Below, piece after piece: positions 1 to 37,364 of a DNA stretch of 64,000 bases. The notes beneath the pieces are model-generated. The model worked only from the letters and a program-made list of their open reading frames with translations. It did not search any database and was not told the DNA's origin. Numbering within the stretch: position 1 is the stretch's first letter; each line of letters starts with the position of its first letter. This stretch comes from Escherichia coli phage AZ21, in the sequence record LC788708.1, one strand, 5' to 3'. Position numbers and translations under genes: made by a program.

Positions 1-467
1 TCGTACGTCCTAATGAACCTCTAGGCAAGTCTCTTGGTATGCTTCCTGGTGATCTAGCAGAAAAGCTAGAGCCTTGGTTGGAGCCAATAGCTGATGGTAT
101 GAAATGGGCCATCGGCGATCATGCATATAAAGGATATGTCGAACGTCAGAAAATTAAATTTTTGGCTATCGAACATGCTCGTGGCAGAACTTTCAACAAC
201 TCCTATGTAATTGTCGATGAAGCTCAGAATATTTCCGTTGAGGCAATGATTTGTCTCCTAACTCGTGTAGGACAAGACTGCCGTTTAATTATCTGCGGAG
301 ATATAGCTCAGAAAGACATTAAAGGTGACTCAGGTCTAGCACTCCTTATGGAAGTCTATGAGAAATACGAAAATGCCCCATTCTCAATGATCGAATTGAT
401 TGATAACGTTCGTTCTGTCGAGTCTAAAGCATTCTATGATATTTTTAAAGACATGGGGAAGGTGTAA
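1..467 (+). CDS. phoH: PhoH-like ATPase, C-terminal part (5' end lies outside window)
   Basis: Frame open from window edge; Walker-B-like VIVDEAQN and PhoH C-terminal motifs. Confidence 0.6.
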   Translation, partial: VRPNEPLGKSLGMLPGDLAEKLEPWLEPIADGMKWAIGDHAYKGYVERQKIKFLAIEHARGRTFNNSYVIVDEAQNISVEAMICLLTRVGQDCRLIICGDIAQKDIKGDSGLALLMEVYEKYENAPFSMIELIDNVRSVESKAFYDIFKDMGKV

Positions 468-468
468 T

Positions 469-690
469 ATGGGAAACGTCGTTCATCTGAGCCGTAAAAC
501 TAAAATACATCGTACTTCACTGAGTGCTGCTAATATTATTACACGTAAGGAAGGAGAAGAAAGTCCTAAGACAACCCTAGCGTGGAAAATTGTAACCTCA
601 AATCCAAATAAACCATTCAATTATAACGAGCTGAGCACCTCCATAGATATTCTATTAAAAGAAGTAGCTAGAGCTAAAGTAATTGAATAA
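469..690 (+). CDS. small hypothetical protein (about 73 aa)
   Basis: ATG preceded by GGGGAAGG RBS; nested in 400..690 track ORF. Confidence 0.35.
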   Translation: MGNVVHLSRKTKIHRTSLSAANIITRKEGEESPKTTLAWKIVTSNPNKPFNYNELSTSIDILLKEVARAKVIE

Positions 691-832
691 GCTAAAAAGC
701 TAGACTGGTAATATACAGGGCCTGGGTATGAAAATACTCGGGCCTTTTCTATCAGAAAATTTTATTTGCCTAATGACCAATAATAATGTAGAATATTCCT
801 TAAATCCTGATAACTATAAAAAGGAAAGCCAA

Positions 833-3163: not shown

Positions 3164-3172
3164 TAAAAACAA

Positions 3173-3199
3173 GGAGATCTTCGGGTCTCCTTTTTCTTT
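3173..3199 (+). terminator. rho-independent terminator after nrdA
   Basis: GGAGATC-TTCG-GGTCTCC hairpin followed by TTTTTCTTT. Confidence 0.7.
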
Positions 3200-3209
3200 G
3201 AAATTTTAC

Positions 3210-3238
3210 TTGCTAATCGCTACCAGATTTGCTATAAT
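3210..3238 (+). promoter_or_regulatory. T5-type early sigma70 promoter (TTGCTA-17-TATAAT)
   Basis: -35 TTGCTA 3210-3215, 17-bp spacer, -10 TATAAT 3233-3238. Confidence 0.7.
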
Positions 3239-3269
3239 ATTCCTGAAATAGTGAGAAAGAGGAAAATCA

Positions 3270-4415
3270 ATGACTACTTTACTAAACCTGAATTGGGATC
3301 ATACTAACGCTGACCTTTTCCTGGGAGATTCTCTCGGTATCGCAGATTATGTACGTGTAGCACATCCAGAACTAGAACGTCTGGCACTTCTGCAACGCTC
3401 TCAATTTTGGACTGAAACTGAAATCAGTCTGGAAGCAGATAAGAAACAATGGCCCAATCTCCCTCGTGAAATTCAGGAAATTACACTCCTGAACTTAGCA
3501 TGGCAAACTCAAACTGATTCCTTTATCAGTCGTGCCCCTGAAGCAGCTATTATGCCACTTGTAAGTCGTCCAGAATTGGAAGGTATGCTCAAACAGTGGA
3601 GCTATTTTGAAGACCTGCATAGTCGTGCTTATAGCAATATTATTCGTAATGTGCTGACTGATCCAGCAGAATTTATTGATTCTGTAACCAAAAACCAAGA
3701 AGCATTCGCGCGCATCGCTGATTCTGTTGAACTATTCGATGAACTGTACCAGTTAGGTCAGTATTTCATCGCAGTACGCGATCATCGTGGAGACAATACA
3801 TATCCAGAAACTGAGTTCCCTGAAGTTAAACGTGAAACTCAGGCTAAACTATTGGACGCTTACTTTGCGATCTATGGTCTGGAAGCAATGCAGTTTTACG
3901 CATCCTTTGCATGTACCTTTGCATTAGCAGAGAACGATATTCTGCAAGGTATTGCTAAAAATCTGCAATTAATCGCTAAAGATGAAGCTCTGCACACTCA
4001 GATGTCCAAAGCAATCATCCAGATTATGTTTCAGCAATTTGACAAAGATCTGGTAGATGAGGCAGTAGCTAAAGCACCAGCACAGCTCCTGAAAACTCTG
4101 AAAACTGAAATTGAATGGGGTCATTTCATTTTCAAAGGTCGTAGTCTGATTGGCTTGAATGCAGAACTTCTAGAAGAATATCTGTACTTTGTGGGGCGCA
4201 ATGCATTTATGCACATCGGTGTAGAATGGCCTAGTCACTTACCAGTAATCACCAAAAACCCTATTCCGTGGATCATGAACTGGTTGGATACTACTTCTCT
4301 ACAGCCTGCTCCGCAAGAAATCCAGATTGGTGCAGCTTACCGTGTAGGTCAGGTAACTGAGACCTCTACTGATACTCTGAAAGATCTGGGTAATGAATTT
4401 GGAGATTTCTTATGA
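3270..4415 (+). CDS. nrdB: ribonucleotide reductase class Ia small subunit
   Basis: Di-iron ExxH motifs (KDEALHTQ), ferritin-like fold signature, adjacent to nrdA. Confidence 0.9.
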   Translation: MTTLLNLNWDHTNADLFLGDSLGIADYVRVAHPELERLALLQRSQFWTETEISLEADKKQWPNLPREIQEITLLNLAWQTQTDSFISRAPEAAIMPLVSRPELEGMLKQWSYFEDLHSRAYSNIIRNVLTDPAEFIDSVTKNQEAFARIADSVELFDELYQLGQYFIAVRDHRGDNTYPETEFPEVKRETQAKLLDAYFAIYGLEAMQFYASFACTFALAENDILQGIAKNLQLIAKDEALHTQMSKAIIQIMFQQFDKDLVDEAVAKAPAQLLKTLKTEIEWGHFIFKGRSLIGLNAELLEEYLYFVGRNAFMHIGVEWPSHLPVITKNPIPWIMNWLDTTSLQPAPQEIQIGAAYRVGQVTETSTDTLKDLGNEFGDFL

Positions 4416-4945
4416 TTACAGCAATGTATGCAGTTGGGCCGAATGGGGAGTTCGGCCTCCGCGGTAAACTTCCATGGGGTTCCTTCAAAGAAGAACTAGA
4501 TGCTTTCTATTCTCAACTGGACGTATTAAATCCAGATAACATCATCATTGGTGCGGGTACTTATTTAGCTCTTCCATACGCCGTTAGAGAACGTATGATT
4601 AGGGCTTCTGACCTATTTATTCGTGTTGATCGTCCACTGCCAGACGATATTACGCATGATATTTACACTCCAATTTCTAAGATTGGGGATACATTACCTA
4701 CGTTTCTGAAAGATCAGCAGACAGTGGTTTTAGGTGGCGCAACATTATTGTACGAAATGTATATTCATGGACATATTGAGAGTGCTTTTGTATCCACAAT
4801 CTTTAGTAGTCAAAAACTAGAGGCAGATGTACATCTGGATAATATGATTCTAGATTACAACTATGAATCTACTCGTTTAGTTTACGCAACTGGCGCAAAC
4901 AGTGATAACAGCCTGCGATTTGTACAGGAATTGGTTACTTATTAA
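4412..4945 (+). CDS. frd: dihydrofolate reductase
   Basis: N-terminal [24 protein letters not shown] signature; sits between nrd and thy. Confidence 0.8.
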
Positions 4946-5799
4946 TGGATCAGTATATCGAAGTTGGAAAACGCATTCTATCAGATGGTCAGTGGGTAAC
5001 GAATCCTAGAACAGGGGTTCGTTGCCTCACTATTATTGATGCAGACTTTACTTTTAACGTAGGTGCAGGGGAATTTCCCCTTATTACTACTCGTAAGGCG
5101 TTTGCAAAACAAGCAATAATGGAAATGATTGGGTATCTACGTGGATATGACTCAGCAGCACAATTCCGTGCTATTGGTGTTAACACATGGAATGCTAATG
5201 CAAATGAAAACTCAGCTTGGCTAGACAATCCATACCGTAAAGGTGAGGATGATATGGGACGAGTCTATGGTGTTCAAGGACGTCAGTGGACTAATTCCGA
5301 TGGTCTTATGTTTGACCAACTAGCCAAGATTTATCATAATCTGAAAAGGGGCATTGATGATCGTGGGGAAATTCTAACCTTCTGGAATCCGGGAGAGTTC
5401 TCAAAGGGTTGCTTACGTCCATGTATGCACACTCATCAGTTCTCTATTTTGGGAGATACATTATACCTGAACTCTTTCCAGAGATCTAATGACTTCCTGT
5501 TAGGCCAAGTATTTAACATGGTTCAGTGCTATACGCTTCTAGCATTAATGGCTCAGATTACAGGCCTTAAACCAGGAATTGCACGCCAGAAGATTATCAA
5601 TCTTCATATCTATGAGGATCAGTATAATGTTTTGATGGAGCATAAGCAATTCGATCGTAAACCTTTTGCACCTCCTACTCTAGAAATTAATCCAAATATC
5701 CGAACTCTGGAGGATGTATTGACCTGGGTAAATAAGGATGATTTTACTGTTCGTGGTTACGAACACCACCCTGCTATTGCATACCCCTTTACGGTATAA
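4945..5799 (+). CDS. thyA: thymidylate synthase
   Basis: 284 aa; TS fold motifs (RPCMHTHQF nucleophile region, [13 protein letters not shown]). Confidence 0.85.
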
Positions 5800-5802
5800 T
5801 AT

Positions 5803-6156
5803 ATGTTGACAATACTATTATTTGTTATATTCTTCCTGAAACATTTTATGGCTGATTATCCCCTCCAAACTCCATACATGTTAAGGAAGACCCACAAAAT
5901 AGGGTGGAAACTTCCATTACTAACCCATTCTCTAGTACATGCTGGACTAACCTTTATAATTCTTACTATGTTCACATCACTAGGAATGGCTATAACTTTA
6001 GCTATAATGGAATTAATTCTACACTTTATCATAGATTACTGGAAAGCACAATGCTGTAAATACGATATAAGTGATTCCAGGTTTTGGATAGCTTTAGGAT
6101 TTGATCAGTTACTCCATTACTTAACCTATGCTCTCATAATTTTAATTATAATTTAG
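5803..6156 (+). CDS. multi-pass membrane protein
   Basis: Four hydrophobic segments; very AT-rich. Confidence 0.5.
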   Translation: MLTILLFVIFFLKHFMADYPLQTPYMLRKTHKIGWKLPLLTHSLVHAGLTFIILTMFTSLGMAITLAIMELILHFIIDYWKAQCCKYDISDSRFWIALGFDQLLHYLTYALIILIII

Positions 6157-6161
6157 CTCAA

Positions 6162-6186
6162 ATAGCCCTTCGGGGCTATTATATTT
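6162..6186 (+). terminator. rho-independent terminator
   Basis: ATAGCCC-TTCG-GGGCTAT hairpin then T-rich run. Confidence 0.65.
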
Positions 6187-6195
6187 AAATTTCAT

Positions 6196-6224
6196 TTGCT
6201 TATTTAGTGAAATTTAAATATAAT
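6196..6224 (+). promoter_or_regulatory. T5-type early promoter
   Basis: TTGCTT-17-TATAAT followed by TATAAATTGGAGG. Confidence 0.65.
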
Positions 6225-6250
6225 ATATTTTATAAATTGGAGGTACACAT

Positions 6251-6508
6251 ATGGGACTCTTTAGAAAGAAAGTTTATTTAACAGAAGAGCAAGAACACAA
6301 ACTTCTTACTCTATCAGAATACTATCATTTACCATATGATTATTTTGTAGATAGAGCAATAGAGGAATTCTTAGATAGAGAATTAGAGGCTATAAAACCT
6401 AAGCCTCCTGAGCCGTCTTTAGCATCAAAGGGTCACCAAAGAGAATCCCCAAGAGTTCCGCCAATGCCCCCAATTCCACCAAAAACTAGAGTTGTAACAG
6501 AGTTGTAA
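6251..6508 (+). CDS. hypothetical protein, Pro-rich C-terminus
   Basis: ORF with strong RBS (GGAGG) 8 nt upstream. Confidence 0.5.
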   Translation: MGLFRKKVYLTEEQEHKLLTLSEYYHLPYDYFVDRAIEEFLDRELEAIKPKPPEPSLASKGHQRESPRVPPMPPIPPKTRVVTEL

Positions 6509-6524
6509 TAGAAGGTAAAAAATA

Positions 6525-7004
6525 ATGTCGGTTTTCCACATTTACACAGATGGTGCTTGTAAGTCTAACCCAGGTCCAGGTGCTTGGGGTTTTATTGTCT
6601 ATAATGATAACGACGATCGTTTAGGTTCTAAATCTGGTTATAATCCTAAAACTACAAATAATGAGATGGAACTCACAGCTATTGTAGAAGCTCTACGTTG
6701 GTCTGTTAAAAAAGATAATAGACCAATTGCTATCTATACTGACTCTGCTTATTGCAAAAATGGCATGGAAAGCTGGATGTTTTCTTGGCAAAGGAAAGGC
6801 TGGAAGAAAGCAGATGGTGAAGTTCCTCTTAATCTAGAACTTTGGCAGGAAGCATTTAAATTAACACAGCAGTATATCAACTTTCATAATACTAATCCTA
6901 CCTTTATTAAGGTTAAAGGACATTCTGGTATTAGTGGTAATGAAGCTGTAGACGCCTTATGTAATACAGTTATTACTGAAGCTGAAATGGCTGAGATGTT
7001 ATAA
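6525..7004 (+). CDS. rnh: ribonuclease H (RNase HI family)
   Basis: YTDGAC..NPG, MELTA, YTDS motifs of RNase HI catalytic DEDD. Confidence 0.85.
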   Translation: MSVFHIYTDGACKSNPGPGAWGFIVYNDNDDRLGSKSGYNPKTTNNEMELTAIVEALRWSVKKDNRPIAIYTDSAYCKNGMESWMFSWQRKGWKKADGEVPLNLELWQEAFKLTQQYINFHNTNPTFIKVKGHSGISGNEAVDALCNTVITEAEMAEML

Positions 7005-7031
7005 ATAAATTAAAAATTTTCTTGCTTAAAG

Positions 7032-7060
7032 CCCTCTAATTTAGTATAATATTCGTATTG
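7032..7060 (+). promoter_or_regulatory. T5-type early promoter
   Basis: TTGCTT-17-TATAAT; GAGGAGGG RBS downstream. Confidence 0.65.
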
Positions 7061-7077
7061 AAAGTGAGGAGGGATTT

Positions 7078-7356
7078 ATGCGAATTTATAACTCAAATTC
7101 ATTAGGATTTAAACCATTGAGAAAACGTGCACAATCACCTCGTCAAATAAGAAAGGCTAATATTGGTGAGCCAGAGACACGCCTTCCACCTCCTCCAGAA
7201 CAACGTTTAGTTTATCTGGACGAAGAATTAGCTGAACGCGAAAGAAAAGCTCAAGAAGAGATTGAGCGTAAGAAAATGTGTACTGCTCCAGCGTATAATA
7301 AAGGGGCGTATCAATACGTCTCAGATGCCGAACAAGCTAAGATGGTTGGTAGATAA
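7078..7356 (+). CDS. hypothetical protein
   Basis: ORF behind promoter/RBS. Confidence 0.5.
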   Translation: MRIYNSNSLGFKPLRKRAQSPRQIRKANIGEPETRLPPPPEQRLVYLDEELAERERKAQEEIERKKMCTAPAYNKGAYQYVSDAEQAKMVGR

Positions 7357-7372
7357 TTTTTAAAAAATTCAT

Positions 7373-7401
7373 TTGCTAAACGCTTCAAATTCTCGTATAA
7401 T
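7373..7401 (+). promoter_or_regulatory. T5-type early promoter (A-tract, TTGCTA-17-TATAAT, CATAAATTG)
   Basis: Closely resembles PN25-type architecture. Confidence 0.7.
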
Positions 7402-7439
7402 ATACTTCATAAATTGATAAACAAAAAGGAAAACAAATA

Positions 7440-7955
7440 ATGGCTAAGCAGAAAAACGCAAAAACTCAAGCAGCTCCGGCAGTTAAAACTTTCCCGAAGA
7501 CTGAGGCTAATCGCAAAGCTCGGCTGGAACGTCACCTGCGTAAGCATCCTACAGATGCTCAGGCTGCGCAAGCACTGAATAATCCGGCTCCGATTCGTCA
7601 GAAGCCTAAAGCTAAAAATGCCACCCGTAAATCCTACAAAATGGTTATGTATGTAGAAAATTACGGCCACAAATCTGTCCCAGTTTCCCTGAGCTTTAAC
7701 GCTGGGGCTGAATTGTTCTCTCGTAATGGTATGTCTATGAAAGACTATGAGAAGGCAGTTAACCAGAAGCGTAAACCAACAGCAGATGTATTGCGCGATA
7801 CTCGTGGACAGTTTGGTTCTGTTAAGCCAAGTATCTTTGGCGTAGAGTATAGTAAAGATAATGTTCGTGCTCTGTGTTACGGTGTAGGTATTAAGTTCAC
7901 GGGTGATTCTGCTCGTAAATCTGCTAAACCAGCTCGCAAGCGTAAAGCGAAGTAA
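7440..7955 (+). CDS. basic Lys/Ala/Arg-rich protein, possible DNA-binding
   Basis: Highly basic low-complexity N and C termini. Confidence 0.5.
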   Translation: MAKQKNAKTQAAPAVKTFPKTEANRKARLERHLRKHPTDAQAAQALNNPAPIRQKPKAKNATRKSYKMVMYVENYGHKSVPVSLSFNAGAELFSRNGMSMKDYEKAVNQKRKPTADVLRDTRGQFGSVKPSIFGVEYSKDNVRALCYGVGIKFTGDSARKSAKPARKRKAK

Positions 7956-7964
7956 TAGATAAAT

Positions 7965-7980
7965 AGGGGCGAAAGCCCCT
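7965..7980 (+). terminator. GC hairpin AGGGGCGAAAGCCCCT (no U tract)
   Basis: Perfect 6-bp stem with GAAA loop; same hairpin recurs at 8244. Confidence 0.45.
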
Positions 7981-8019
7981 ACAATCGACTAATTCTCTAA
8001 CTAATCAAGGATATTTTTT

Positions 8020-8235
8020 ATGTTCTCTAAGAAACCACGTTCTGTTACTGAAATCGTTGCTTCCTTTACCACTATCACTGATGAGCTTCAAGCTCGTATT
8101 GAGGCTGATCAAAAAATCGCTGCTGATATTCAGAAACAGCAGGAAGAACTCGCTTTAAAGTTGGCTGAAACCAACAAGAGTGAAAAATCTGCCCAAACTA
8201 TTATGGAAAATATCCTTAAACTGCTGGGCAAGTGA
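8020..8235 (+). CDS. hypothetical coiled-coil protein
   Basis: ORF between two hairpins. Confidence 0.45.
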   Translation: MFSKKPRSVTEIVASFTTITDELQARIEADQKIAADIQKQQEELALKLAETNKSEKSAQTIMENILKLLGK

Positions 8236-8243
8236 TTTAAATC

Positions 8244-8265
8244 AGGGGGGGGCGAAAGCCCCTCT
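8244..8265 (+). terminator. GC hairpin GGGGGGGCGAAAGCCCCTCT
   Basis: Copy of the 7965 hairpin; followed by TATTT. Confidence 0.5.
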
Positions 8266-8279
8266 TATTTGGAGAAACT

Positions 8280-8516
8280 ATGCGTAATTTTGTAGCAAAG
8301 AATGATTTTAACCGTGCTAGCACTCATAAGTCCGCTAGAGATTATACACGACTTTCTAGTCATGAGGTAATGGATACCTGTTATGAAGAGCTGGAAGGTA
8401 GCTGGAATGAGTGTCCCGACTTCTCTATGGAAGAGAACTGGGATGTCAGTGAGGATATGCTTCCTGGTTTTAAAGACCCCAAGAAGTGGGAGTCTATTAA
8501 AGAGACAGCTCTTTAA
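8280..8516 (+). CDS. hypothetical acidic protein
   Basis: ORF with GGAGAAAC RBS. Confidence 0.45.
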   Translation: MRNFVAKNDFNRASTHKSARDYTRLSSHEVMDTCYEELEGSWNECPDFSMEENWDVSEDMLPGFKDPKKWESIKETAL

Positions 8517-8544
8517 TAGTTTTCTACACAATAAAGGATAAGTT

Positions 8545-9246
8545 ATGAAAGTAAAACCATTTGGTATGCTAGATATTGAATCTCTAGGAACTCCAGGAGA
8601 TTGTGGTACTACCCATATCGCAATGCCTTCATTCGCTTTTGTGGCTATGCATGGAATTGATAAAGACCCTGATCTAGTATTTGTTACTTTAGATGTACAA
8701 GATCAACTTAATTCTGGTGCCAAAGTTACAGCATCTACTCTAGCATTCTGGATGGATCAGGCTAAACATAGCCCGTCTGCTATCCACATTATGGAAGCTA
8801 TGAATGAGCGTAATCCAAAACTGGTTGCCTTCCAAAATGGTAAACATCATTGCACTAATAAACTTGGCTCTAACCATGCTGCCTTCTCTATGGCTCAAAA
8901 TATTATGGAGTTGGCTCTAGGCGAAAATGCTTTGTATTATGGCAATGGCCCAGAGTTTGATATGACTATCTACTCTGCAAACACTTTCCATGCTGGAACC
9001 AATGAAGAAATAGTTCCGTGGAAATTCTGGAACTTGGGTAATGTTAGATCTCTTCGTAATCTCTGGATGCAAACTGGCTATAGTTATAAAGCTCTAGAAA
9101 CCGAAGGTATTAGCTGGGCAATAGCTAAAATGGAGAAGATGGACACCATTCGTTATGGGATCTATCCGGTTAAGCACGACCCAGCATTCGATGCCCTAGT
9201 TGAGAGCTATTGTGTTGCAGCTATGATCGAAAAAATGAAAATTTGA
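8545..9246 (+). CDS. possible DEDD-type 3'-5' exonuclease
   Basis: N-terminal LDIESLG motif resembles exo I motif of DnaQ-like exonucleases; weak. Confidence 0.4.
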   Translation: MKVKPFGMLDIESLGTPGDCGTTHIAMPSFAFVAMHGIDKDPDLVFVTLDVQDQLNSGAKVTASTLAFWMDQAKHSPSAIHIMEAMNERNPKLVAFQNGKHHCTNKLGSNHAAFSMAQNIMELALGENALYYGNGPEFDMTIYSANTFHAGTNEEIVPWKFWNLGNVRSLRNLWMQTGYSYKALETEGISWAIAKMEKMDTIRYGIYPVKHDPAFDALVESYCVAAMIEKMKI

Positions 9247-9247
9247 T

Positions 9248-9276
9248 TTGCTTCCGGCTCCAAAATTCTGTATAAT
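9248..9276 (+). promoter_or_regulatory. T5-type early promoter
   Basis: TTGCTT-17-TATAAT then CATAAATTTGAG. Confidence 0.65.
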
Positions 9277-9316
9277 ATATTCATAAATTTGAGAAAACAA
9301 TAAAAGGAAAACAAAT

Positions 9317-9499
9317 ATGCCAGTATCTAAAAATGTTCGTAAAAATGGTAAGAAAGCTACTCGTAATCTGGGTATCCGTCGTATGGCTGAACGTCAATCA
9401 GGTATCCAGAAAATCTTTGATCTGCTAAATCGTGCTAATCCTAAAATTGATAACAGTAACGATACTGTTCTGCGCACCCTGCTGGCAATTGGTCTGTAA
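9317..9499 (+). CDS. small basic protein
   Basis: ORF behind promoter, AAAGGAAAAC RBS. Confidence 0.45.
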   Translation: MPVSKNVRKNGKKATRNLGIRRMAERQSGIQKIFDLLNRANPKIDNSNDTVLRTLLAIGL

Positions 9500-9552
9500 T
9501 AGACCAAATTTAAACAAATTCAAATCTCAAACTTCATATAAGGAAGCAAATA

Positions 9553-10191
9553 ATGACTACTCGTATCTCTAAAACTCGCGCTCTGGCAACTATCAAATCT
9601 CTGGAAGCTAAAATCCGTAAAGCTACTGAACAACAGCTTCTGATCGCTGTTGGTGAAGGTAAGGATAAAAACCAGGTTGTAGTTGGCGCTGCAATCGAAG
9701 TAGATGCCCTGTCTACTCGTATTAAAACTGATTTCCAATCTCTGCTGGATATGATGTCTCAGCGTGATCGTATTAAATCTGCTCTGATTAAGAGCAATGC
9801 AGAAACAATCGTTGAGATTGGTTCTCGTAAGATGACTGTTGCGGAAGCAATTGAAGCTAAGCGTTCTATGGAGCTTAAAGCTCAGCTGCTGGCTAACATG
9901 CGTAAGCAGTTCCATGCCGCTACGATTAAGTTTAATACGCAGAAAGCACAGTTTGATGCTAAATATGAGCGTTTGCAGGATAGCATGGCTACCCGCGATA
10001 AGAAAACTTCCGAAGATGAAGTTAAAATGCAGCTCAATCTGCTGGAACTCAAGAATACTCCATTCTTGATTGATCCGCTGGAACTGGAGAAGCTGATTAA
10101 GCAGCATGACGAGGAATACCAGGACTTTGCAACAAATGTTGACTTTGTTCTATCCGAGTCTAACGCCTCTACCTTCATTGAAGTAGAGTAA
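9553..10191 (+). CDS. coiled-coil protein
   Basis: High codon regularity; antisense ORFs rejected. Confidence 0.55.
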   Translation: MTTRISKTRALATIKSLEAKIRKATEQQLLIAVGEGKDKNQVVVGAAIEVDALSTRIKTDFQSLLDMMSQRDRIKSALIKSNAETIVEIGSRKMTVAEAIEAKRSMELKAQLLANMRKQFHAATIKFNTQKAQFDAKYERLQDSMATRDKKTSEDEVKMQLNLLELKNTPFLIDPLELEKLIKQHDEEYQDFATNVDFVLSESNASTFIEVE

Positions 10192-31653: not shown

Positions 31654-32094
31654 ATGAGAGAAAAAGTAAATGAATTACTAATCGAGGAAGCTAACAACTT
31701 TCCAATAAATAGGTTTGTCAAATCTGATGGATCTATTAATAGAACTAAGATTAAGCAGCTACATCCCGACTTTCAACAAGAAGCACTAAACCTTATATTT
31801 ATCAAGAAAGCTGTTGCAGTTCATGGGGCTTTCTTTGGGTATGAGCGTGTAAATTACAAAACAATGCAACAGCAAGTCGAGATCTACTGTCCAGATCATG
31901 AAGGGTATTATTGGCAAACTGCTAGATCTCATTTAGAAGGGCATGGTTGTCGACTGTGTGCACACAAGGTTGTGCAGCGTGTCACGGATTATGGAACTTA
32001 TACCGTACCAGCATGTTATCATAAATTTGTAGTTGACGATAATCATATAGTTTGGTATAATAAGTTTTCAAAGTTAAGAATGGAGATAAAATAA
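31654..32094 (+). CDS. zinc-ribbon protein (CPDH...GCRLC)
   Basis: Same C..H..G.GC..C motif as N-terminus of the 49949 protein. Confidence 0.45.
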   Translation: MREKVNELLIEEANNFPINRFVKSDGSINRTKIKQLHPDFQQEALNLIFIKKAVAVHGAFFGYERVNYKTMQQQVEIYCPDHEGYYWQTARSHLEGHGCRLCAHKVVQRVTDYGTYTVPACYHKFVVDDNHIVWYNKFSKLRMEIK

Positions 32095-32279
32095 TGGAAA
32101 CTCTTTTTCTTTTAATGCTCGTAGGTTCTCTGTTACTAATACTAGCACTTCTACTAATCTGCAATATTCTTAACAACAAGAATCTAGAGCTAAAGTGTGA
32201 GAACCAAATCCTTAATCGTGAACTTAAACAATATAACATCGCAGCCCATAAACTGTTAGACAAACTGGAGAATAAATAA
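32094..32279 (+). CDS. small membrane protein
   Basis: Single TM. Confidence 0.4.
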   Translation: METLFLLMLVGSLLLILALLLICNILNNKNLELKCENQILNRELKQYNIAAHKLLDKLENK

Positions 32280-32884
32280 TGACTTTTAATACACAACAAT
32301 CTATTCAAGTAGTGCCAGATCATGAACTGAACACATGGGATTATAGCTTTAAAGATTTAACTGCTACTATACAATTTAAATCTATGAAGCTAACATTTGC
32401 ACACACTGATCTTAGAGCCTGTAAAGATCTTGAGGATAAGCTCGAAGATGCTCGTAAGATTTTTGGCAAGGCTCGCATCCCGGCTGATAATCTAATTAAC
32501 GCATTAATCGATGTAGGATACAAACTCGTGAAGACTGAGGTGAACCGCCCTAGTACTCCAGTGACTGTTAGAGATCCGTGGCAGCCAGGGACAATCTCAA
32601 TGCTAAATAAATCATCGGATATACACAATGTTCCATGCGGTGGTGTGGTAAGTAGTACGCAGTCATACAAGTTTGGTGAAGATTACGGCCCTTCTGTGCA
32701 GTTGAAACATACTCAAGAAGCTTTTGAATCTGATATGCGAAGCGTAGCACCTGTGGATGCTGGAGTTTCTAGGAGTTCTGTTTGTACTATTCATTTTAAT
32801 AATCCTAGTAAACATGGAAGTTTAGAGGATGCTATCCTTGAAGCGTTGGGAGCTGCTATTAATGAAGATAAAAGAGGTAGTTAA
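32279..32884 (+). CDS. hypothetical protein
   Basis: ORF. Confidence 0.45.
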   Translation: MTFNTQQSIQVVPDHELNTWDYSFKDLTATIQFKSMKLTFAHTDLRACKDLEDKLEDARKIFGKARIPADNLINALIDVGYKLVKTEVNRPSTPVTVRDPWQPGTISMLNKSSDIHNVPCGGVVSSTQSYKFGEDYGPSVQLKHTQEAFESDMRSVAPVDAGVSRSSVCTIHFNNPSKHGSLEDAILEALGAAINEDKRGS

Positions 32885-33774
32885 TGGGATTTTATAGTAA
32901 TAGAAAACCAAAAGGTGTAACTGGTAAATTCGCAGTTGAAGAAAGACCTTTTCCACCGGTCGATGTAGAGAAACTACGTGAACTTCTAGAAATGCTAGAA
33001 GGTTGCCATGAACGTTGTTATTCTGAACTCTCTTTAAATGAGAAACGTGTTGTTGAGATGTTCTGTATTCGTTCAGCTAGAACAGCTAAAGGTACTTCTC
33101 CAAAAGATGAAGTAAAAGAGTACAGAGTTCTAGTGATGCATGCTTGGGCACAACGTTTTGCAGTTCATTCGCTTCAGGAATGGTTTAATCTTCCAGCCTA
33201 TAAAGATTTTCATGTTTACGAAGATGAGGTTATGAATTATAATGAGTTGTATGGTTTGTCCTTCAAAAAGACAGGCTCACCGATGCATGATGCACTCAAT
33301 TCATTCCCTGATCATTACCTTCCAGTTCGTGAATATAGAGATCGTGAAGGAAATAAACCCTGCTTCACTATTTGGAATAAGTCTAAGACGATATCTGATC
33401 TAGATAATTATTGGTTTCGCACAAAAGAAGGATTCCTAGGAACAGAACCTTTACCTAAGGATCTCAAACCTATCCTTCCGCCTGCGAAACCTAAACATGA
33501 AGTAACGATTGCTATTAATAGAATAATTCTAGGAGCAGATGATCTTACTAAACAAATCGCCGCAGTTATCGCAGTTCTGTTTGACGGTACAAATTCTTCT
33601 GCACGTTATGAGAAGCTAACGGATAACAAATTGCAGATACCTAACGAGTTGTATGAGAGTTCGTGCAAGATCTATGATAACTTTAGTAAAGTAGATTACC
33701 CCGTGAGATCCATTAAAGAACTCATGGAGTATGCGGAGATGGGGATGAAAGGAAATCTCATGTTCGATGAATAA
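32884..33774 (+). CDS. hypothetical protein (last + strand ORF before repeat region)
   Basis: ORF. Confidence 0.5.
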   Translation: MGFYSNRKPKGVTGKFAVEERPFPPVDVEKLRELLEMLEGCHERCYSELSLNEKRVVEMFCIRSARTAKGTSPKDEVKEYRVLVMHAWAQRFAVHSLQEWFNLPAYKDFHVYEDEVMNYNELYGLSFKKTGSPMHDALNSFPDHYLPVREYRDREGNKPCFTIWNKSKTISDLDNYWFRTKEGFLGTEPLPKDLKPILPPAKPKHEVTIAINRIILGADDLTKQIAAVIAVLFDGTNSSARYEKLTDNKLQIPNELYESSCKIYDNFSKVDYPVRSIKELMEYAEMGMKGNLMFDE

Positions 33775-33781
33775 ACTCTAC

Positions 33782-33810
33782 TTGACGTTATGATTTCTGC
33801 ATGTTATAAT
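33782..33810 (+). promoter_or_regulatory. near-consensus sigma70 promoter TTGACG-17-TATAAT firing into non-coding repeat region
   Basis: No ORF for about 1.8 kb downstream. Confidence 0.55.
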
Positions 33811-34138
33811 AACTCTATGAAATAACATAGAATAAAGAGATCCACCCGGATACGGATGGTGGATGGGAAACTTCTATTTCCCCCGTAGCTTGTCGGAGGG
33901 CTAGGGAAATCTTAAGAAGTTTTGTACCATCTCACGCAATTCGTATCCCAGGGGTGGAGCATCTCTTCCAATCTTTGGGGATCTTATACTTAAATTAAAG
34001 GTAAAACTTTTGGTCACATAATTTACATTCAAGATGATACACTGGTTGCCGCCATTCTTCCTAGGATGGCACAACACTTTCTTCTAGACTCCTAAGTTTC
34101 TAGGAATACTAACTCTAGAGTTTACACTAAACTTTGAA

Positions 34139-34876
34139 TCGGATTCGCACATGCTCTAGGGCAGTTTTTCATCTACTATAAATATCCTAGGCCGGTTTTC
34201 CTATACAGGGCGGTTATGGGGAGGGCGGTTATTTCTAGACAATAAAATTTACTCTTGTCAGTCCAGAAATTACTGTCGGATTTGCACATTGTGTTTCTAG
34301 AAATTTATGGTCGGATTTGCACAATTGCCTAAGTTTTTAGGAACATATAATCTCCTGAAAATGGCAGCATTATTTCGGGCCGAAGGCCCATGATTGCCTG
34401 AGTTTTTTTAGAGACACAGAAATTTTCACTTGTCAAGCTATTTTGCCCCATTTTGCTAATAAAATTTTACTTTATCTCCCCTAATCTCAAATTAACCCAA
34501 ATCTTCTCAACTCTTCTCCAAAATCCCCGCAAATCAGGTGCTCCGCACCAAACATGCGCCCCTCCCGTAGTTCCCCCAAGTTTCTCTCGATCTCTCAACT
34601 TCTCCCCAAACTCATACAATCACACACCCTCCAATCGAAGTCACAAAAATCTTGTCGGATTCGCACAAATAAACCCATGTCGGATTTGCACATATTCTAG
34701 TTAATTCCACAGGATTGATGCGCAGCATCGGATTGCTGGAGTTTTTGGGAGAATTCATTGTCGGATTCGCACACTATAAAAATTTTTCGGGTCGGATTTG
34801 CACACTACCAAAAATTGTCGGATTCGCACATACACGCCCACGCGTAATCCATGGGGGCAAATGTCGGATTTGCACA
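34139..34876 (+). repeat. nine dispersed copies of 15-bp motif TGTCGGATT(T/C)GCACA
   Basis: Copies at 34139, 34274, 34309, 34653, 34678, 34759, 34789, 34816, 34862, all same orientation. Confidence 0.8.
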
Positions 34877-34903
34877 AAAGCGCAGGGCAATTGCCCTGCT
34901 TGC

Positions 34904-35078
34904 CTGAATGCGAATGATAATGAGAATCATTTGCATTTAAAAAGCGGAATGAGAATGATAATAATTCGCATTTAAGAATGGAAGTGAGAATTATTCAGGA
35001 AGTGAAACGATTCTCATTTAAAAAGTGAAACGATTCTCATTTAGAAAGTGAAACGCGAATGATAATGATTCGTATTTA
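34904..35078. promoter_or_regulatory. array of Fur-box-like AT-rich palindromes (GAATGATAATGAGAATCATT family)
   Basis: At least five overlapping units, incl. tandem AAGTGAAACGATTCTCATTTA x2; related copies at 35413, 35805, 39463. Confidence 0.5.
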
Positions 35079-35290
35079 AGAATGGAAGTGAGAAACACTA
35101 TTATTTAAGTTATCCACAGACTTATCAACAGCACGATTTGACTTGACAGAATCCTAGCCATTTTGAGGCGTTATCAACAGACTTATCAACAGCTTATCCT
35201 ACTGTATAAATATACAGTATTCCTATGCAGTGAATAATTCTAATATACAGCTAAAACGCTCTCAAACGCATTCTAACGCGTTTAATTTTG
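35076..35290. repeat. left arm of about 215-bp imperfect inverted repeat (contains DnaA boxes TTATCCACA / TTATCAACA)
   Basis: Hand alignment with reverse complement of 39121-39336 (shared AAGTGAGAARCACTATYATTTAAGTTATCCACA, CAGACTTATC, ACTGTATAAATATACAG, AAACGCATTCTAACG). Confidence 0.75.
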
Positions 35291-35585
35291 GTGGGGATAC
35301 TAAAACAAGGGCAAAATTGGAGGAGGCTTGAAAATTAGTTAGCTCGCTAATGATCACACACGGCGACACGTAACACCCTAACCATTAGCAGGCTAACCAT
35401 CGCGGGCGTGGTCAAATGAGAATGATTCTCATTTGTGGATTGGGGGCGCTTCCTGATAGTTGCGCCCCGTGATTATTATAGTAGGGGGCAACCGTTACGC
35501 TTTGCCCACTCCCGCCACTCATCTTGGTGCCTAGACTTGCGACGGCGTACTAAAAACCGCTTGTACCAGTGATTAAACCATCGTT

Positions 35586-35789
35586 TCATAAATCCTCCTC
35601 CGGTAGTCGATGCGTGATCTTTTCCTCCTCCCCATAGGAATCCACCAAATACTGATAATAACCATCGTGATCATAAATCACTTTATCATATTCCCCACGC
35701 TCGACCGCTTGCCGATTTTCCAACGTATCAGGCACAAAGAAAGTATCAACGGTAACAGTAGTTTTAGTTACAACAATTTTATCACTCAT
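35586..35789 (-). CDS. small acidic protein
   Basis: Fur-like palindrome overlaps its upstream region. Confidence 0.45.
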   Translation of the reverse strand: MSDKIVVTKTTVTVDTFFVPDTLENRQAVERGEYDKVIYDHDGYYQYLVDSYGEEEKITHRLPEEDL

Positions 35790-35915
35790 AATGCCATCGC
35801 CCCTAGAATGAGAATGATTATCAATATCATTGTGAAGCCATTACCAAATCGTAAACGCTGGGAATGTTTCCCAGCGGTATTATTAGACTTATGGCTTTGT
35901 GTTTTTCGCCACCAG

Positions 35916-36116
35916 CTATTCACGGTAGACGCTCCATCCGTCTAGCTTCCATTCTTCCCCCTTGCGAATATTGAAAAACCAATCATTAAAATTGTAACCA
36001 TCTTCTGACATGATCACGCCGTTTTCTTTCATGTACAAAAATTCATCACTAGTAAAATATTGATTACTAACTTTAAAACCTTGTTTCATTTTTTCTAGTG
36101 CTTCATCTTTAGTCAT
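35916..36116 (-). CDS. small hypothetical protein
   Basis: Start overlaps upstream stop (ATGA). Confidence 0.45.
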   Translation of the reverse strand: MTKDEALEKMKQGFKVSNQYFTSDEFLYMKENGVIMSEDGYNFNDWFFNIRKGEEWKLDGWSVYRE

Positions 36117-36457
36117 TGCGCCACCTTTCGAAACGCTGTTTCAATACTATCCGCAGTGGATTGAATATATGCGCCTTTGAGTATCAGCCGCTCGGTGCAT
36201 ATCTTGCGAAAAATATTAATAAAATCGTCCTCATTTTCTGCGATTAATGCCTCACCCATAACCTGAACGTCGCAAGATGCAAAGGTCAAAAATTGAAACG
36301 CTAGTTCACGGGCAACGACCGCATTGATTTTATAATGCGCCTTGCCTTCATAGATATTAATAACGCCCTTATAAGCTGGCGAAAGCTGATTTAAGTAGTT
36401 TGCTAATAATGCCGGACGGCAATTAGCAACAAAACGATTGCCCTCATAAATAACCAT
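36113..36457 (-). CDS. hypothetical protein
   Basis: GGGAG RBS. Confidence 0.5.
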   Translation of the reverse strand: MVIYEGNRFVANCRPALLANYLNQLSPAYKGVINIYEGKAHYKINAVVARELAFQFLTFASCDVQVMGEALIAENEDDFINIFRKICTERLILKGAYIQSTADSIETAFRKVAQ

Positions 36458-36584
36458 TTGATAGTCTCCCGATTAGATAGCCAGATAATAACATAAAGAT
36501 CCCCAATAAAAGAGGATCATTCTTAAATAAGGTGGCGGTAAAACCGCCAACCATTGCAAGGAGAATAACAATAATGCTTTTCAT
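36446..36584 (-). CDS. small membrane protein (about 46 aa, below track cutoff)
   Basis: Hydrophobic MKSIIVILLAMVGGFTATLF; stop overlaps next start. Confidence 0.3.
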
Positions 36585-36793
36585 AGTACCCCACGAAACG
36601 CAGCGTAAAAGGTGGCAAAGTGTTTAACTGTTTCAGCAATCACGTTGCCGCGCTTATCAAATTTCTTTTCTGTAACACGAAAGGCATTTTTATTACGTGC
36701 TACATATTCGATTTTACAATCTTCCCGCTCGAACGTGTTAACATCCACCAGCTTAAAGCCTTTCGAACGTGCAAGAGAAACGTTGCGGATCAT
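36581..36793 (-). CDS. small hypothetical protein
   Basis: AAAGGGGA RBS. Confidence 0.45.
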   Translation of the reverse strand: MIRNVSLARSKGFKLVDVNTFEREDCKIEYVARNKNAFRVTEKKFDKRGNVIAETVKHFATFYAAFRGVL

Positions 36794-36795
36794 TT

Positions 36796-36978
36796 TTATT
36801 CCCCTTTACTAGTCATGCAGCCCAGCAGATAAGAAAATACAGCGATGCCAGCACCAATAGTAACCATTGGTTTTATATTTACTAAACCGCAATAGGAATC
36901 CTGAATACCATAAGCGGTGGCGAAAAGAGTCAAAATAGCGCCCAAGATACCCGCTAAAATAGCTCGAAAAATAACCAT
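36796..36978 (-). CDS. small membrane protein
   Basis: Two TM helices; GAGGAG RBS. Confidence 0.45.
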   Translation of the reverse strand: MVIFRAILAGILGAILTLFATAYGIQDSYCGLVNIKPMVTIGAGIAVFSYLLGCMTSKGE

Positions 36979-37027
36979 TTGTAATACTCCTCTAGTTAGT
37001 GGGGCGAAAGTAACGCCCCGTTATTAA

Positions 37028-37258
37028 TTACATTAAAATAATTTTTGCCGCTTGTTTTTTGGTACAGTGTTCCGCTTTCAGGGTGTCCAGCAAAAAGCCC
37101 GCCGTTTGCTGATCGATTTTATCGGCATTATATAGTTCTTGGATGGTGTTATAAGTTTTAGCAATGCCGTATTCTTGTACCATTTCTTGAATAATCCAGC
37201 GATTTGATACCCAGCCTTTACCAGTGAAAAGAGCGTCAGAAGAAGAGTAAGCAACCAT
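37028..37258 (-). CDS. hypothetical protein
   Basis: Start moved to the Met with GGAGG RBS (MVAYSSS...). Confidence 0.45.
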   Translation of the reverse strand: MVAYSSSDALFTGKGWVSNRWIIQEMVQEYGIAKTYNTIQELYNADKIDQQTAGFLLDTLKAEHCTKKQAAKIILM

Positions 37259-37364
37259 TTTAAGCCTCCAAATTTTTGGGAAAATTTTCAACCGTCCTCA
37301 AACGGTGTAAAGGCATTATAACAAAAAAGGCCGCCATAAAAGGCGACCTTTACAAAACTTTACA

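What the first reader, a model, noticed from the sequence alone, without database searches (positions are those of the whole stretch)
33782..34470. Near-consensus promoter firing into ~1.8 kb of non-coding DNA: candidate ncRNA or boundary transcript
TTGACG-17-TATAAT at 33782-33810 sits right after the last early ORF and points into a region with no ORF of 60 codons or more. That region is rich in CTAG and small hairpins, and contains the tandem GGGCGGTTAT x2 at 34203-34232. A transcript from here would cover the repeat arrays. It could be a structured ncRNA, or transcription could modulate the DNA-transfer pause site.
Basis: seen in the sequence. Interest (0 to 1): 0.5.

Follow-up and report, generated by a model that had tools for sequence, protein, structure and literature searches.

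The report
Orphan promoter at T5 repeat boundary
In this T5-like phage a strong bacterial-type promoter, kept in every relative examined, fires into gene-free DNA, first through a 133-base hairpin and then toward the edge of the 10-kb terminal repeat; it probably makes an untranslated "boundary" transcript whose role has never been tested.

Summary
TTGACG-17-TGtTATAAT (33782-33810, + strand) is one of only two promoters this close to consensus in the 64-kb window (0.17 expected by chance). It starts 8 nt after the stop codon of the T5.018-like gene and faces 1.8 kb with no conserved ORF.

The window is a T5-like phage (100% identical to AZ23). The flagged stretch is not the injection-stop region. 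[quoted passage not shown]

A near-consensus extended -10 promoter sits at the same place in the Tequintavirus, Epseptimavirus, Sugarlandvirus and Myunavirus genomes checked, although the flanking genes and spacer differ.

New here: every lineage folded has a short hairpin and then a long (76-145 nt) hairpin whose sequence is not conserved, starting 25-60 nt after the -10. In the window it lies at 33835-33967 and is the most stable 150-nt fold in all 64 kb. Conserved DNA motifs follow, up to a nearly invariant repeat boundary.

Best reading: an independent, untranslated, structured boundary transcript that acts locally on end processing or replication. Whether the hairpin works as RNA or as DNA is unresolved. 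The promoter enters the cell only after the transfer pause, so it cannot modulate that pause.

The parts
32884..33774 (+). Last gene of the leftward early operon (T5.018-like, 296 aa). Context only.
   Evidence: ORF list. Annotated as a hypothetical protein in AZ23. Residues 22-188 are 44% identical to T5 ORF018, and the C-terminal part differs.
33782..33810 (+). Sigma-70 promoter with an extended -10: TTGACG, 17-nt spacer, TGtTATAAT. Predicted start near 33817.
   Evidence: In 31 distinct relatives the hexamers and TGn are conserved while the spacer varies. The same element is present in T5, BF23, phiR2-01, IME260 and three related Klebsiella phages (Sugarlandvirus-type), and My1.
33814..33831 (+). 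Short hairpin close to the promoter (TCTATG / CATAGA).
   Evidence: Folds. Every lineage folded has a comparable short hairpin, with compensatory changes within type C: AAAACAA/TTGTTTT against ACAATAA/TTATTGT.
33835..33967 (+). Long imperfect hairpin or inverted repeat, 133 nt, 54 pairs, -63 kcal/mol as RNA.
   Evidence: z = -5.2 on either strand. It is the most stable 150-nt fold in the 64-kb window: -64.2 against a mean of -31.5+-7.0. Analogous hairpins with non-homologous sequence occur in T5, DT57C, BF23, EscoHU1, chee24-type, phiR2-01, IME260, phi1_146058 and My1. Compensatory changes occur within the T5 type.
33977..34106 (+). First conserved block of the spacer: a G-run (33977-33980), TTCAAGATGATACAC, a GCCAT..ATGGC hairpin around CCTAGG, and the palindrome CCTAAGTTTCTAGG.
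   Evidence: Alignment with T5 starts here. Conservation profile. Found in 441 phage records.
34061..34300 (.). CTAG cluster: 8 sites, mostly in the context TTCTAG(A/G).
   Evidence: The sites fall in conserved columns.
34207..34232 (+). G-rich pair AGGGCGGTTAT-GGGG-AGGGCGGTTAT, lying on the non-template strand for this promoter.
   Evidence: only copies in the window. Nearly invariant. Also present in IME260 and My1.
34138..34323 (+). Three 'direct repeat D' iterons on the unique side (34138-34151, 34275-34288, 34310-34323), consensus GTCGGATT(T/C)GCACA.
   Evidence: 10 matches against 0.36 expected; 9 of them lie between 34138 and 34876, all on the + strand. They correspond to T5 DRD copies 7-9.
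34377..34410 (+). GGGCC-GAA-GGCCC hairpin, a 12-nt spacer, a T-run, then the last unique base. The terminal repeat begins at 34411.
   Evidence: Nearly invariant from 34357 to 34436. The boundary comes from T5 (LTR end 10139), EscoHU1 (9914) and BF23 (9743, by PhageTerm), all at the homologous site ...CCTGAGTTTTTA|GA.... IME260 has a different hairpin plus a T-run at the same place.
34411..35585 (.). Non-coding right end of the terminal repeat: a C-rich tract (about 34440-34650), six more DRD iterons, the nick region, AT-rich repeats and DnaA boxes (the published injection-stop region).
   Evidence: Davison preprint 10.1101/866236. The whole repeat spans 34411-44976 in the window.

Best explanation
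The promoter at 33782-33810 is a genuine transcription unit of its own, read by host sigma-70 RNA polymerase. It can act only once second-step DNA has entered the cell.

It starts an untranslated RNA near 33817. The first ~150 nt of that RNA fold into a short hairpin and a 133-nt long hairpin. Transcription then runs through the conserved unique spacer (CTAG boxes, the G-rich AGGGCGGTTAT pair on the non-template strand, three DRD iterons) to and across the right boundary of the terminal repeat at 34410|34411. Just inside the repeat, a ~250-nt C-rich, G-poor tract would favour Rho-dependent termination.

I infer that the unit acts locally, on the DNA it crosses. Either the act of transcription or the hairpin-bearing RNA or DNA serves whatever machinery recognises, copies or cuts the repeat end. 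The closest parallel is transcription from phiOR across the T7 concatemer junction.

Shown: the promoter sequence and its conservation, the conserved hairpin architecture, the absence of a conserved ORF, and the position relative to the repeat boundary.
Inferred: that RNA is made, how long it is, and what it does.
For: 1. Promoter quality is beyond chance: 2 TGn sites at 11/12 or better, against 0.17 expected.
2. The conservation pattern is that of a promoter. The hexamers, TGn and the 17-18 nt spacing are kept while the spacer sequence varies. In 26 of the 34 full-length loci exactly one promoter of 10/12 or better with TGn lies 545-645 nt upstream of the boundary hairpin; one locus has a second site, six related loci carry a weaker -35 (TTGCAT, as read in DT57C and BF23) and one is an unrelated chance match. 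The promoter-proximal segment comes in three sequence types, found in 38, 141 and 201 GenBank phage records.
3. The promoter is kept although the gene upstream differs (T5.018-like, EscoHU1_016, an HNH endonuclease in DT57C), and it is kept in three further genera: TTGACG-17-TGtTACAAT in phiR2-01, TTGACA-17-TGtTAGAAT in IME260, TTGACA-17-TGtTAAAAT in My1.
4. In IME260 an intrinsic terminator lies between the upstream gene and the promoter, so the promoter starts a separate unit.
5. A long hairpin follows within 25-60 nt of the -10 in all 10 lineages folded. Its sequence is unalignable between lineages. z is about -5 or lower in the window, T5 and My1 and -2.6 to -4.9 elsewhere. Within the T5 type there are 3 compensatory pairs and 3 one-sided changes that keep pairing. 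It is the most stable fold in the window.
6. No conserved ORF, no Rfam family, no tRNA.
7. The G-rich motifs lie on the non-template strand. GC skew drops to -0.4 to -0.7 immediately inside the repeat.
8. On this strand T5 has no canonical intrinsic terminator until the end of the pre-early operon.
9. The most conserved DNA is at the repeat boundary itself.
Against: - I could reach no transcript data. No paper or record that I could read annotates or maps this promoter.
- The hairpin is equally stable on both strands, and G-U against A-C counts show no strand bias: 38 against 33 fixed pairs, and 10 against 4 polymorphic pairs. It may be a DNA-level inverted repeat unrelated to RNA.
- The discriminator (AACTCT) lacks the ATATT element that Klimuk et al. 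report for the T5 early promoters identified so far, so the temporal class and in vivo activity are unknown.
- The local (cis) role is an analogy. The T7 facts come from my memory, not from a source read here.
- If packaging starts at the right genome end, the promoter lies on the side of the cut that is not packaged.
- Some records place the repeat end elsewhere: Kenya-K36 includes the spacer and promoter in its DTR, and the T5 st0 record stops at the nick.
Confidence: 0.4

Rival explanations
1. Stand-alone structured small RNA. The promoter makes a ~150-200 nt RNA (short hairpin plus long hairpin) that is released by RNase III cleavage or by pausing and termination after the hairpin. It acts elsewhere in the cell through its shape, for example as a double-stranded-RNA decoy or a protein sponge. 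The conserved DNA motifs downstream would be a separate matter.
For: The structure is conserved while the sequence is not, in 10 lineages. This fits recognition by shape. The hairpin is tightly coupled to the promoter (25-60 nt after the -10). In phi1_146058 and IME260 a first GC-rich stem is followed by a U-rich stretch. The + strand fold of the whole spacer has z = -5.75 against -3.18 for the - strand.
Against: The long hairpin has no U-tract after it in types A, B or C, so no defined 3' end is predictable. No Rfam match. No strand asymmetry in wobble pairs. A trans-acting role does not explain why the unit always sits 545-645 nt from the repeat boundary.
Confidence: 0.25
2. DNA-level inverted repeat. 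The 133-bp palindrome works as a cruciform or single-strand fold-back during replication, recombination or duplication of the terminal repeat. The promoter only helps extrusion, or is there by coincidence.
For: Stability is equal on both strands and pairing is mostly Watson-Crick (416 Watson-Crick pairs against 31 G-U). It sits beside iterons, DnaA-box-like repeats and the repeat boundary. From memory, a hairpin-forming inverted repeat near the T7 concatemer junction was proposed as a processing intermediate.
Against: It does not by itself explain the strictly conserved strong promoter, or the promoter's fixed order and distance relative to the palindrome, in all lineages. No cruciform or nuclease data are available.
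Confidence: 0.2
3. End-of-operon element. The hairpin is a 3' processing or stabilising site, or a transcription barrier, for the leftward early operon. The promoter is a redundant internal promoter with no role of its own.
For: In the window the promoter starts 8 nt after the stop codon with no terminator between them. Read-through RNA would therefore carry the hairpin at its 3' end, much like the RNase III sites of T7 or lambda sib (from memory).
Against: IME260 already terminates the operon before the promoter. The promoter is better conserved than the hairpin sequence. The unit persists when the upstream gene is replaced.
Confidence: 0.1
4. One reading: transcription from this promoter modulates the DNA-transfer pause.
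For: The promoter points toward the injection-stop region.
Against: The promoter lies outside the terminal repeat, about 1.1 kb beyond the shear point, so it is not in the cell during the pause. The right-hand repeat has no adjacent copy.
Confidence: 0.02
5. A missed small protein gene. The only consistently open small frame is 34307-34393 (28 aa).
For: The frame is intact at full length in 21 of 33 loci.
Against: It has no ribosome-binding site. It lies 490 nt from the promoter. It overlaps a DRD iteron and the boundary hairpin, whose DNA is nearly invariant for other reasons. It is broken in 12 loci.
Confidence: 0.03

Closest known systems
T5 'Repeat Region 3' and injection-stop region (AY587007 9194-10409; Wang 2005 annotation; Davison preprint 10.1101/866236)
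   Same: [quoted passage not shown] It holds DRD copies 7-9, and the remaining DRD copies, the nick and the DnaA boxes lie just beyond in the repeat.
   Different: The promoter, the short and long hairpins and the first conserved block (33782-34137) lie outside the published region. The preprint text contains no occurrence of 'promoter', and none of the records I read annotates one here.
T7 phiOR promoter, pacB and the concatemer junction (recalled from memory: Chung & Hinkle 1990; Chung, Nardone & Hinkle 1990; Zhang & Studier 2004)
   Same: An orphan promoter in unique DNA next to the terminal repeat fires across the repeat boundary. Short repeat arrays and a hairpin-forming inverted repeat lie nearby. 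In T7 the transcription is tied to concatemer processing.
   Different: Host sigma-70 polymerase here, phage polymerase in T7. The promoter lies on the opposite side of the repeat. The repeat is 10 kb, not 160 bp. The palindrome is 133 bp. No functional data exist for T5.
RNA-primed or transcription-activated origins (ColE1 RNA II, T4 oriF/oriG, mitochondrial LSP-CSB; from memory)
   Same: A promoter about 0.5-0.6 kb upstream of a critical site, a highly structured 5' RNA, G-rich blocks on the non-template strand, and iterons and DnaA-box-like repeats close by.
   Different: No evidence of initiation here. From memory, electron-microscopy work placed the main T5 origins near the genome centre. 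No DNA-unwinding element was identified.
HK022 put RNA and other promoter-proximal antiterminator RNAs (from memory)
   Same: Hairpins formed by the first ~100-150 nt of a transcript that then has to cross a long untranslated stretch exposed to Rho.
   Different: No sequence or size similarity. No terminators to be overcome have been shown. Not tested.
RNase III processing hairpins of T7 early RNA and lambda sib (from memory)
   Same: A long, mostly Watson-Crick RNA hairpin just after strong promoters or at an operon end.
   Different: Two to three times longer. The cleavage determinants could not be assessed with these tools.

Membership tests
Sigma-70 promoter, extended -10 class | -35 and -10 hexamers close to TTGACA/TATAAT, 16-18 nt apart, with TGn immediately upstream of the -10 | tested here: met
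   TTGACG-17-TGtTATAAT, 11/12. Sites this good are rare: 2 observed against 0.17 expected.
Sigma-70 promoter, extended -10 class | Hexamers and spacing conserved in relatives while the spacer drifts | tested here: met
   31 distinct relatives plus phiR2-01, IME260, RCIP0070, Kpn2-P1, phi1_146058, BF23 and My1.
Sigma-70 promoter, extended -10 class | Initiates transcription in vitro or in vivo | not testable with these tools
   No transcript data were reachable. The papers read map other T5 promoters only.
T5 early promoters (Klimuk et al. 2020) | ATATT element in the discriminator | tested here: not met
   The discriminator is AACTCT. The criterion is taken from PMC7472727.
T5 injection-stop signal | [quoted passage not shown] | tested here: not met
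   33782-34410 is unique DNA outside the repeat. The boundary is at 34410|34411 and the shear point maps to about 34930.
Curated RNA families (Rfam 15), tRNA and tmRNA | Covariance-model or ARAGORN match | tested here: not met
   No match at E of 1 or lower in the window or in four relatives. No tRNA or tmRNA.
Structured ncRNA (generic) | Structure conserved through sequence change, with compensatory substitutions | tested here: met
   Long hairpin in 10 lineages whose sequences cannot be aligned. 3 compensatory pairs within the T5 type.
Structured ncRNA (generic) | Evidence that the pairing is selected on the transcribed strand (more G-U than A-C) | tested here: inconclusive
   Fixed G-U pairs 38 (+) against 33 (-). 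Polymorphic pairs 10 G-U-type against 4 A-C-type.
Intrinsic terminator | GC-rich hairpin immediately followed by a U-tract | tested here: not met
   The long hairpin has no U-tract after it in types A, B or C. The boundary hairpin is separated from its T-run by 12 nt.
Protein-coding gene | An open frame conserved in relatives | tested here: not met
   Only a 28-aa frame persists, in 21 of 33 loci, and it overlaps invariant DNA motifs.
T7-type transcription-linked concatemer-junction element | Orphan promoter in unique DNA beside the terminal repeat, pointing across the boundary, with repeat arrays and an inverted repeat between | tested here: met
   Anatomy.
T7-type transcription-linked concatemer-junction element | Transcription required for packaging or end formation | not testable with these tools
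   Needs phage genetics or a plasmid-transduction assay.

The most novel reading that the evidence does not exclude
The promoter, the long hairpin and the conserved spacer together form the cis-acting site, so far unidentified, at which Demerecviridae start to copy or cut their 10-kb terminal repeat. Host-polymerase transcription would expose the palindrome or form an R-loop at the G-rich pair, and so license terminase or a replication fork at the repeat boundary.
Probability: 0.2. Interest if true: 0.8.

Novelty: new variant of a known kind. Interest (0 to 1): 0.55.

Why it matters
As far as I know, how T5-like phages generate and package genomes with 10-kb direct terminal repeats is unresolved, and what the large conserved non-coding region at the repeat end does is unknown. 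The BF23 paper says outright that experimental studies of these sites are lacking.

This work separates that region into two parts. One part lies inside the repeat and is the published injection-stop candidate. The other is a unique spacer that carries its own promoter and a hairpin, conserved in all four genera examined. Neither is annotated in any record, nor mentioned in the Davison preprint or in what I read of the other T5 papers.

That gives three small, mutable targets: the -10 hexamer, the hairpin arms and the G-rich pair. Mutating them tests whether transcription is coupled to end formation or replication. If the hairpin RNA instead proves to be a stable product, it would be a family-wide phage ncRNA with no Rfam counterpart.

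Tried and rejected
- Rfam at a permissive threshold on the window and on four relatives: nothing.
- ARAGORN: no tRNA or tmRNA.
- Tandem Repeats Finder does not pick up the GGGCGGTTAT pair.
- A protein-seeded search of IMG/VR with the T5.018-like protein returned one locus only. A DNA-pattern search on the boundary hairpin worked instead: 25 loci, one of them an unrelated chance hit (L042), which I excluded.
- Small-ORF screening found no conserved gene.
- A strand-of-action test by wobble-pair asymmetry was inconclusive.
- The - strand 'terminator' at 33859-33842 from the scan is simply part of the 5' arm of the long hairpin. The T5 version has no T-run, so I rejected it as a terminator.
- Literature searches for T5 transcription-start or RNA-seq maps covering this spacer found none. 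The Bas33 RNA-seq methods describe a gene-level (TPM) analysis, and I found no mention of non-coding regions.
- Gentz & Bujard 1985 and Davison 2015 are not held in the library, so I could not check the classical promoter maps.
Full report
**What the window is**

The stretch 33700-35600 is 100% identical to Escherichia coli phage AZ23 (LC788707), and 457 phage records in the collection, nearly all T5-like Salmonella and Escherichia phages, match it. The window's + strand corresponds to the T5 minus strand.

In T5 the homologous region runs from the early gene T5.018 (AY587007 10856-11740, minus strand) leftward into the left terminal repeat, which ends at 10139 in AY587007 and at 10219 in NC_005859, an 80-bp offset between the two records. 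Aligning the junctions puts the right end of the repeat in the window between 34410 and 34411...CCTGAGTTTTTTTA|GAGACACAG. EscoHU1 (repeat 1-9914) and BF23 (repeat 1-9743, determined from reads with PhageTerm) end at exactly the homologous site. The T5 left terminus maps to window 44976, so the window holds one collapsed repeat copy at 34411-44976.

The finding (33782-34470) is therefore not the injection-stop region. It is almost exactly the unique non-coding spacer between the last leftward early gene and the repeat. The published 'Repeat Region 3' (AY587007 9194-10409) reaches only 270 bp into this spacer, to window about 34140.

**Checking the observation**

- The promoter is there: TTGACG (33782-33787), 17 nt, TG (33802-33803), TATAAT (33805-33810).
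- At the scan's lax threshold, promoter-like sites are no commoner than chance (31 against 26.8). At 11/12 or better with TGn there are only two in 64 kb, against 0.17+-0.45 expected.
- It begins 8 nt after the stop codon of the 296-aa T5.018-like ORF.
- AZ23 annotates no gene for the next 1811 bp. Two mechanical TTG-start ORFs (83 and 86 aa) inside the repeat part are interrupted in many relatives.
- CTAG occurs 9 times in 689 nt (2.2 expected), 8 of them within 237 nt, mostly as TTCTAG(A/G). This is a real but not unique enrichment.
- AGGGCGGTTAT occurs twice, 15 nt apart, and nowhere else in the window.

**Conservation of the promoter**

T5 does not align with the window between the gene and 33977. 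Yet at the same place T5 has TTGACA-17-TGtTATCAT followed by the same AACTCTATGA.

The promoter-proximal segment exists in at least three sequence types:
- type A (the window): 38 records;
- type B (T5): 141 records;
- type C (EscoHU1, DT57C, BF23: TTGACA or TTGCAT, 18 nt, TGtTATAAT): 201 records, many of which share only the -10 and the next ~50 nt.

Of the 34 full-length loci scanned (GenBank regions plus 25 IMG/VR loci fetched through the boundary hairpin), 26 have exactly one promoter of 10/12 or better with TGn, 545-645 nt upstream of that hairpin. One locus has a second site, one is the unrelated chance hit, and the other six fall below the threshold; DT57C and BF23 show the weaker TTGCAT -35. 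In the alignment the hexamers and ATGTTAT(A/C)ATAA are nearly invariant while the spacer is not.

The promoter persists when the upstream gene is different: EscoHU1_016, or an HNH endonuclease in DT57C. It also persists in more distant phages:
- Yersinia phiR2-01: TTGACG-17-TGtTACAAT;
- four Klebsiella phages of the Sugarlandvirus type: TTGACA-17-TGtTAGAAT or TGtTATTAT;
- Pectobacterium My1, in a different subfamily: TTGACA-17-TGtTAAAAT.

In IME260 a canonical terminator separates the upstream gene from the promoter, so the promoter heads a unit of its own.

**What follows the promoter**

Folding 33811-33990 gives a short hairpin (33814-33831) and then a 133-nt imperfect hairpin (33835-33967; 54 pairs, about -63 kcal/mol). 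The z-score is -5.2 on either strand. It is the most stable 150-nt fold in the whole window: -64.2 kcal/mol against a mean of -31.5+-7.0.

The segment is poorly conserved in sequence. Even so, the non-homologous T5 version folds the same way, with z = -6.4 and -6.5 on the two strands. So do EscoHU1, DT57C, BF23, the chee24 type, phiR2-01, IME260, phi1_146058 and My1. These hairpins measure about 76-145 nt and start 25-60 nt after the -10.

Among 43 loci, the ~180 nt from 20 nt past the -10 fall into 13 groups that are less than 80% alike. Within the T5 type, 60 predicted pairs include 3 compensatory changes, 3 one-sided changes that keep pairing and 1 break. Type C shows compensatory changes in its short hairpin, and exchanged inner hairpin segments that still pair.

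Pairing is therefore under selection, and it is coupled to the promoter. I could not decide whether the pairing matters in RNA or in DNA:
- the two strands fold equally well relative to shuffles;
- fixed G-U pairs number 38 on the + strand against 33 on the - strand;
- polymorphic pairs are 10 of G-U type against 4 of A-C type.

**The rest of the spacer**

From 33977 onward the DNA is conserved in 441 records. In order it contains:
- a G-run;
- TTCAAGATGATACAC;
- CTAG-centred palindromes;
- the nearly invariant ACAGGGCGGTTAT-GGGG-AGGGCGGTTATTTCTAG;
- three copies of the 14-15-nt iteron GTCGGATT(T/C)GCACA (the 'direct repeat D' of the T5 annotation);
- a GGGCC-GAA-GGCCC hairpin, a T-run and the repeat boundary.

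The 80 nt around the boundary are the best-conserved part. Six more iterons lie just inside the repeat, and all nine point the same way. The 3' part of the iteron (ATTTGCACA) is one mismatch from the DnaA-box consensus TT(A/T)TNCACA quoted by Davison.

The G-rich motifs lie on the non-template strand for this promoter. Immediately inside the repeat the + strand turns C-rich and G-poor for about 250 nt, with GC skew -0.4 to -0.7. In an untranslated RNA that is the composition expected of a Rho-loading site.

On this strand T5 has no canonical intrinsic terminator between the promoter and the end of the pre-early operon. The same order of elements recurs in IME260 and in My1: promoter, hairpins, G-run, CTAG boxes, G-rich pair, iterons, boundary, C-rich tract, iterons.

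**Interpretation**

The sequence evidence supports a real, autonomous sigma-70 promoter and a structured, untranslated region directly downstream, in a fixed spatial relation to the repeat boundary. That relation is why I favour a local (cis) role: either transcription across the boundary, or an RNA or DNA hairpin that serves end processing, repeat duplication or replication priming. The nearest precedent I know is T7 phiOR and the concatemer junction, recalled from memory and not read here.

A stand-alone small RNA recognised by its shape, and a purely DNA-level palindrome, remain serious rivals.

The promoter is about 1.1 kb beyond the first-step shear point and outside the repeat, so it enters the cell only after the pause has been released. 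The right-hand repeat copy has no such neighbour.

**Comparison with what is known**

The repeat arrays and the injection-stop candidate are published. None of the T5, BF23, AKFV33, AZ23, EscoHU1, phiR2-01, IME260 or My1 records annotates the promoter or the long hairpin. Neither is mentioned in the Davison preprint, whose text contains no occurrence of 'promoter'. The experimentally characterised promoters named for this end of T5 all lie inside the repeat.

The discriminator lacks the ATATT element reported for the T5 early promoters identified so far. No Rfam family matches.

I rate this a new variant of a known kind: an orphan promoter beside a phage terminal repeat. It differs from the known cases in using the host polymerase and in its coupling to a long hairpin. 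No transcript has been shown, so the functional claims are inference.

Noticed in passing
window 32033-32061 (+): The only other near-consensus extended -10 promoter in the window (TTGACG-17-TGgTATAAT). It lies in the 3' end of ORF 31654-32094, upstream of the 61-aa ORF 32094-32279. The same promoter sequence is also present in HASG4 and AKFV33.
   Followed up: partly
window 34411-44976: The window contains a single copy of the ~10.6-kb terminal repeat, flanked by early genes on one side and the end of the late region on the other. It therefore comes from a collapsed or circularly permuted assembly.
   Followed up: yes
window 34138-34876 (+): All nine 'direct repeat D' iterons point the same way and straddle the repeat boundary, 3 outside and 6 inside. 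The 3' half of the iteron is one mismatch from the DnaA-box consensus. IME260 has 11 copies and My1 about 5.
   Followed up: partly
window 34440-34650 (+): A C-rich, G-poor tract (GC skew down to -0.68) begins about 30 nt inside the terminal repeat. IME260 and My1 have it too. It resembles a Rho-loading site for + strand RNA, and would be G-rich on the other strand.
   Followed up: no
window 40301-40450, 40626-40775 and 58051-58200: These are the next most stable 150-nt folds in the window (-58, -53 and -57 kcal/mol). The first two lie inside the terminal repeat and are probably T5 repeat regions 1 and 2. The third lies outside the terminal repeat (beyond 44976) and was not looked at.
   Followed up: no
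window 32884-33976, compared with T5 (L004): The T5.018-like gene is mosaic. Residues 22-188 are 44% identical to T5 ORF018. The C-terminal third, together with the promoter-proximal hairpin module, is a different allele that is swapped as a block. The next mosaic joints fall near 33977 and 34028.
   Followed up: partly
L011 (Kenya-K36), L005 (T5 st0); PMC5816814: Public records disagree on the right end of the repeat. The Kenya-K36 'DTR' runs to just upstream of the promoter and so includes the whole spacer. The T5 st0 record ends the repeat at the 7.9% nick. The chee24 and chee130_1 repeat lengths given by Svab et al. are about 200 bp shorter than homology with T5 predicts.
   Followed up: partly
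window 34307-34393 (+): A 28-aa ATG frame (MVGFAQLPKFLGTYNLLKMAALFRAEGP) is open at full length in 21 of 33 relatives. It has no ribosome-binding site and overlaps an iteron and the boundary hairpin, so it is probably not a gene.
   Followed up: partly
L013 3807-3839 (IME260); T5 type between stop codon and promoter: IME260 has a canonical terminator between the last early gene and the promoter. The T5 type has a hairpin without a T-run there (TCTCGGT...ACCGAGA). The window type has nothing, only 8 nt.
   Followed up: no
window 34877-34899 and 35100-35265 (-): On the - strand there are promoter-like sites in the AT-rich and DnaA-box part of the repeat, and a terminator-like palindrome (GCAGGGCAATTGCCCTGC followed by TTTT) next to the nick region. 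Transcription toward the spacer from inside the repeat is therefore conceivable.
   Followed up: no
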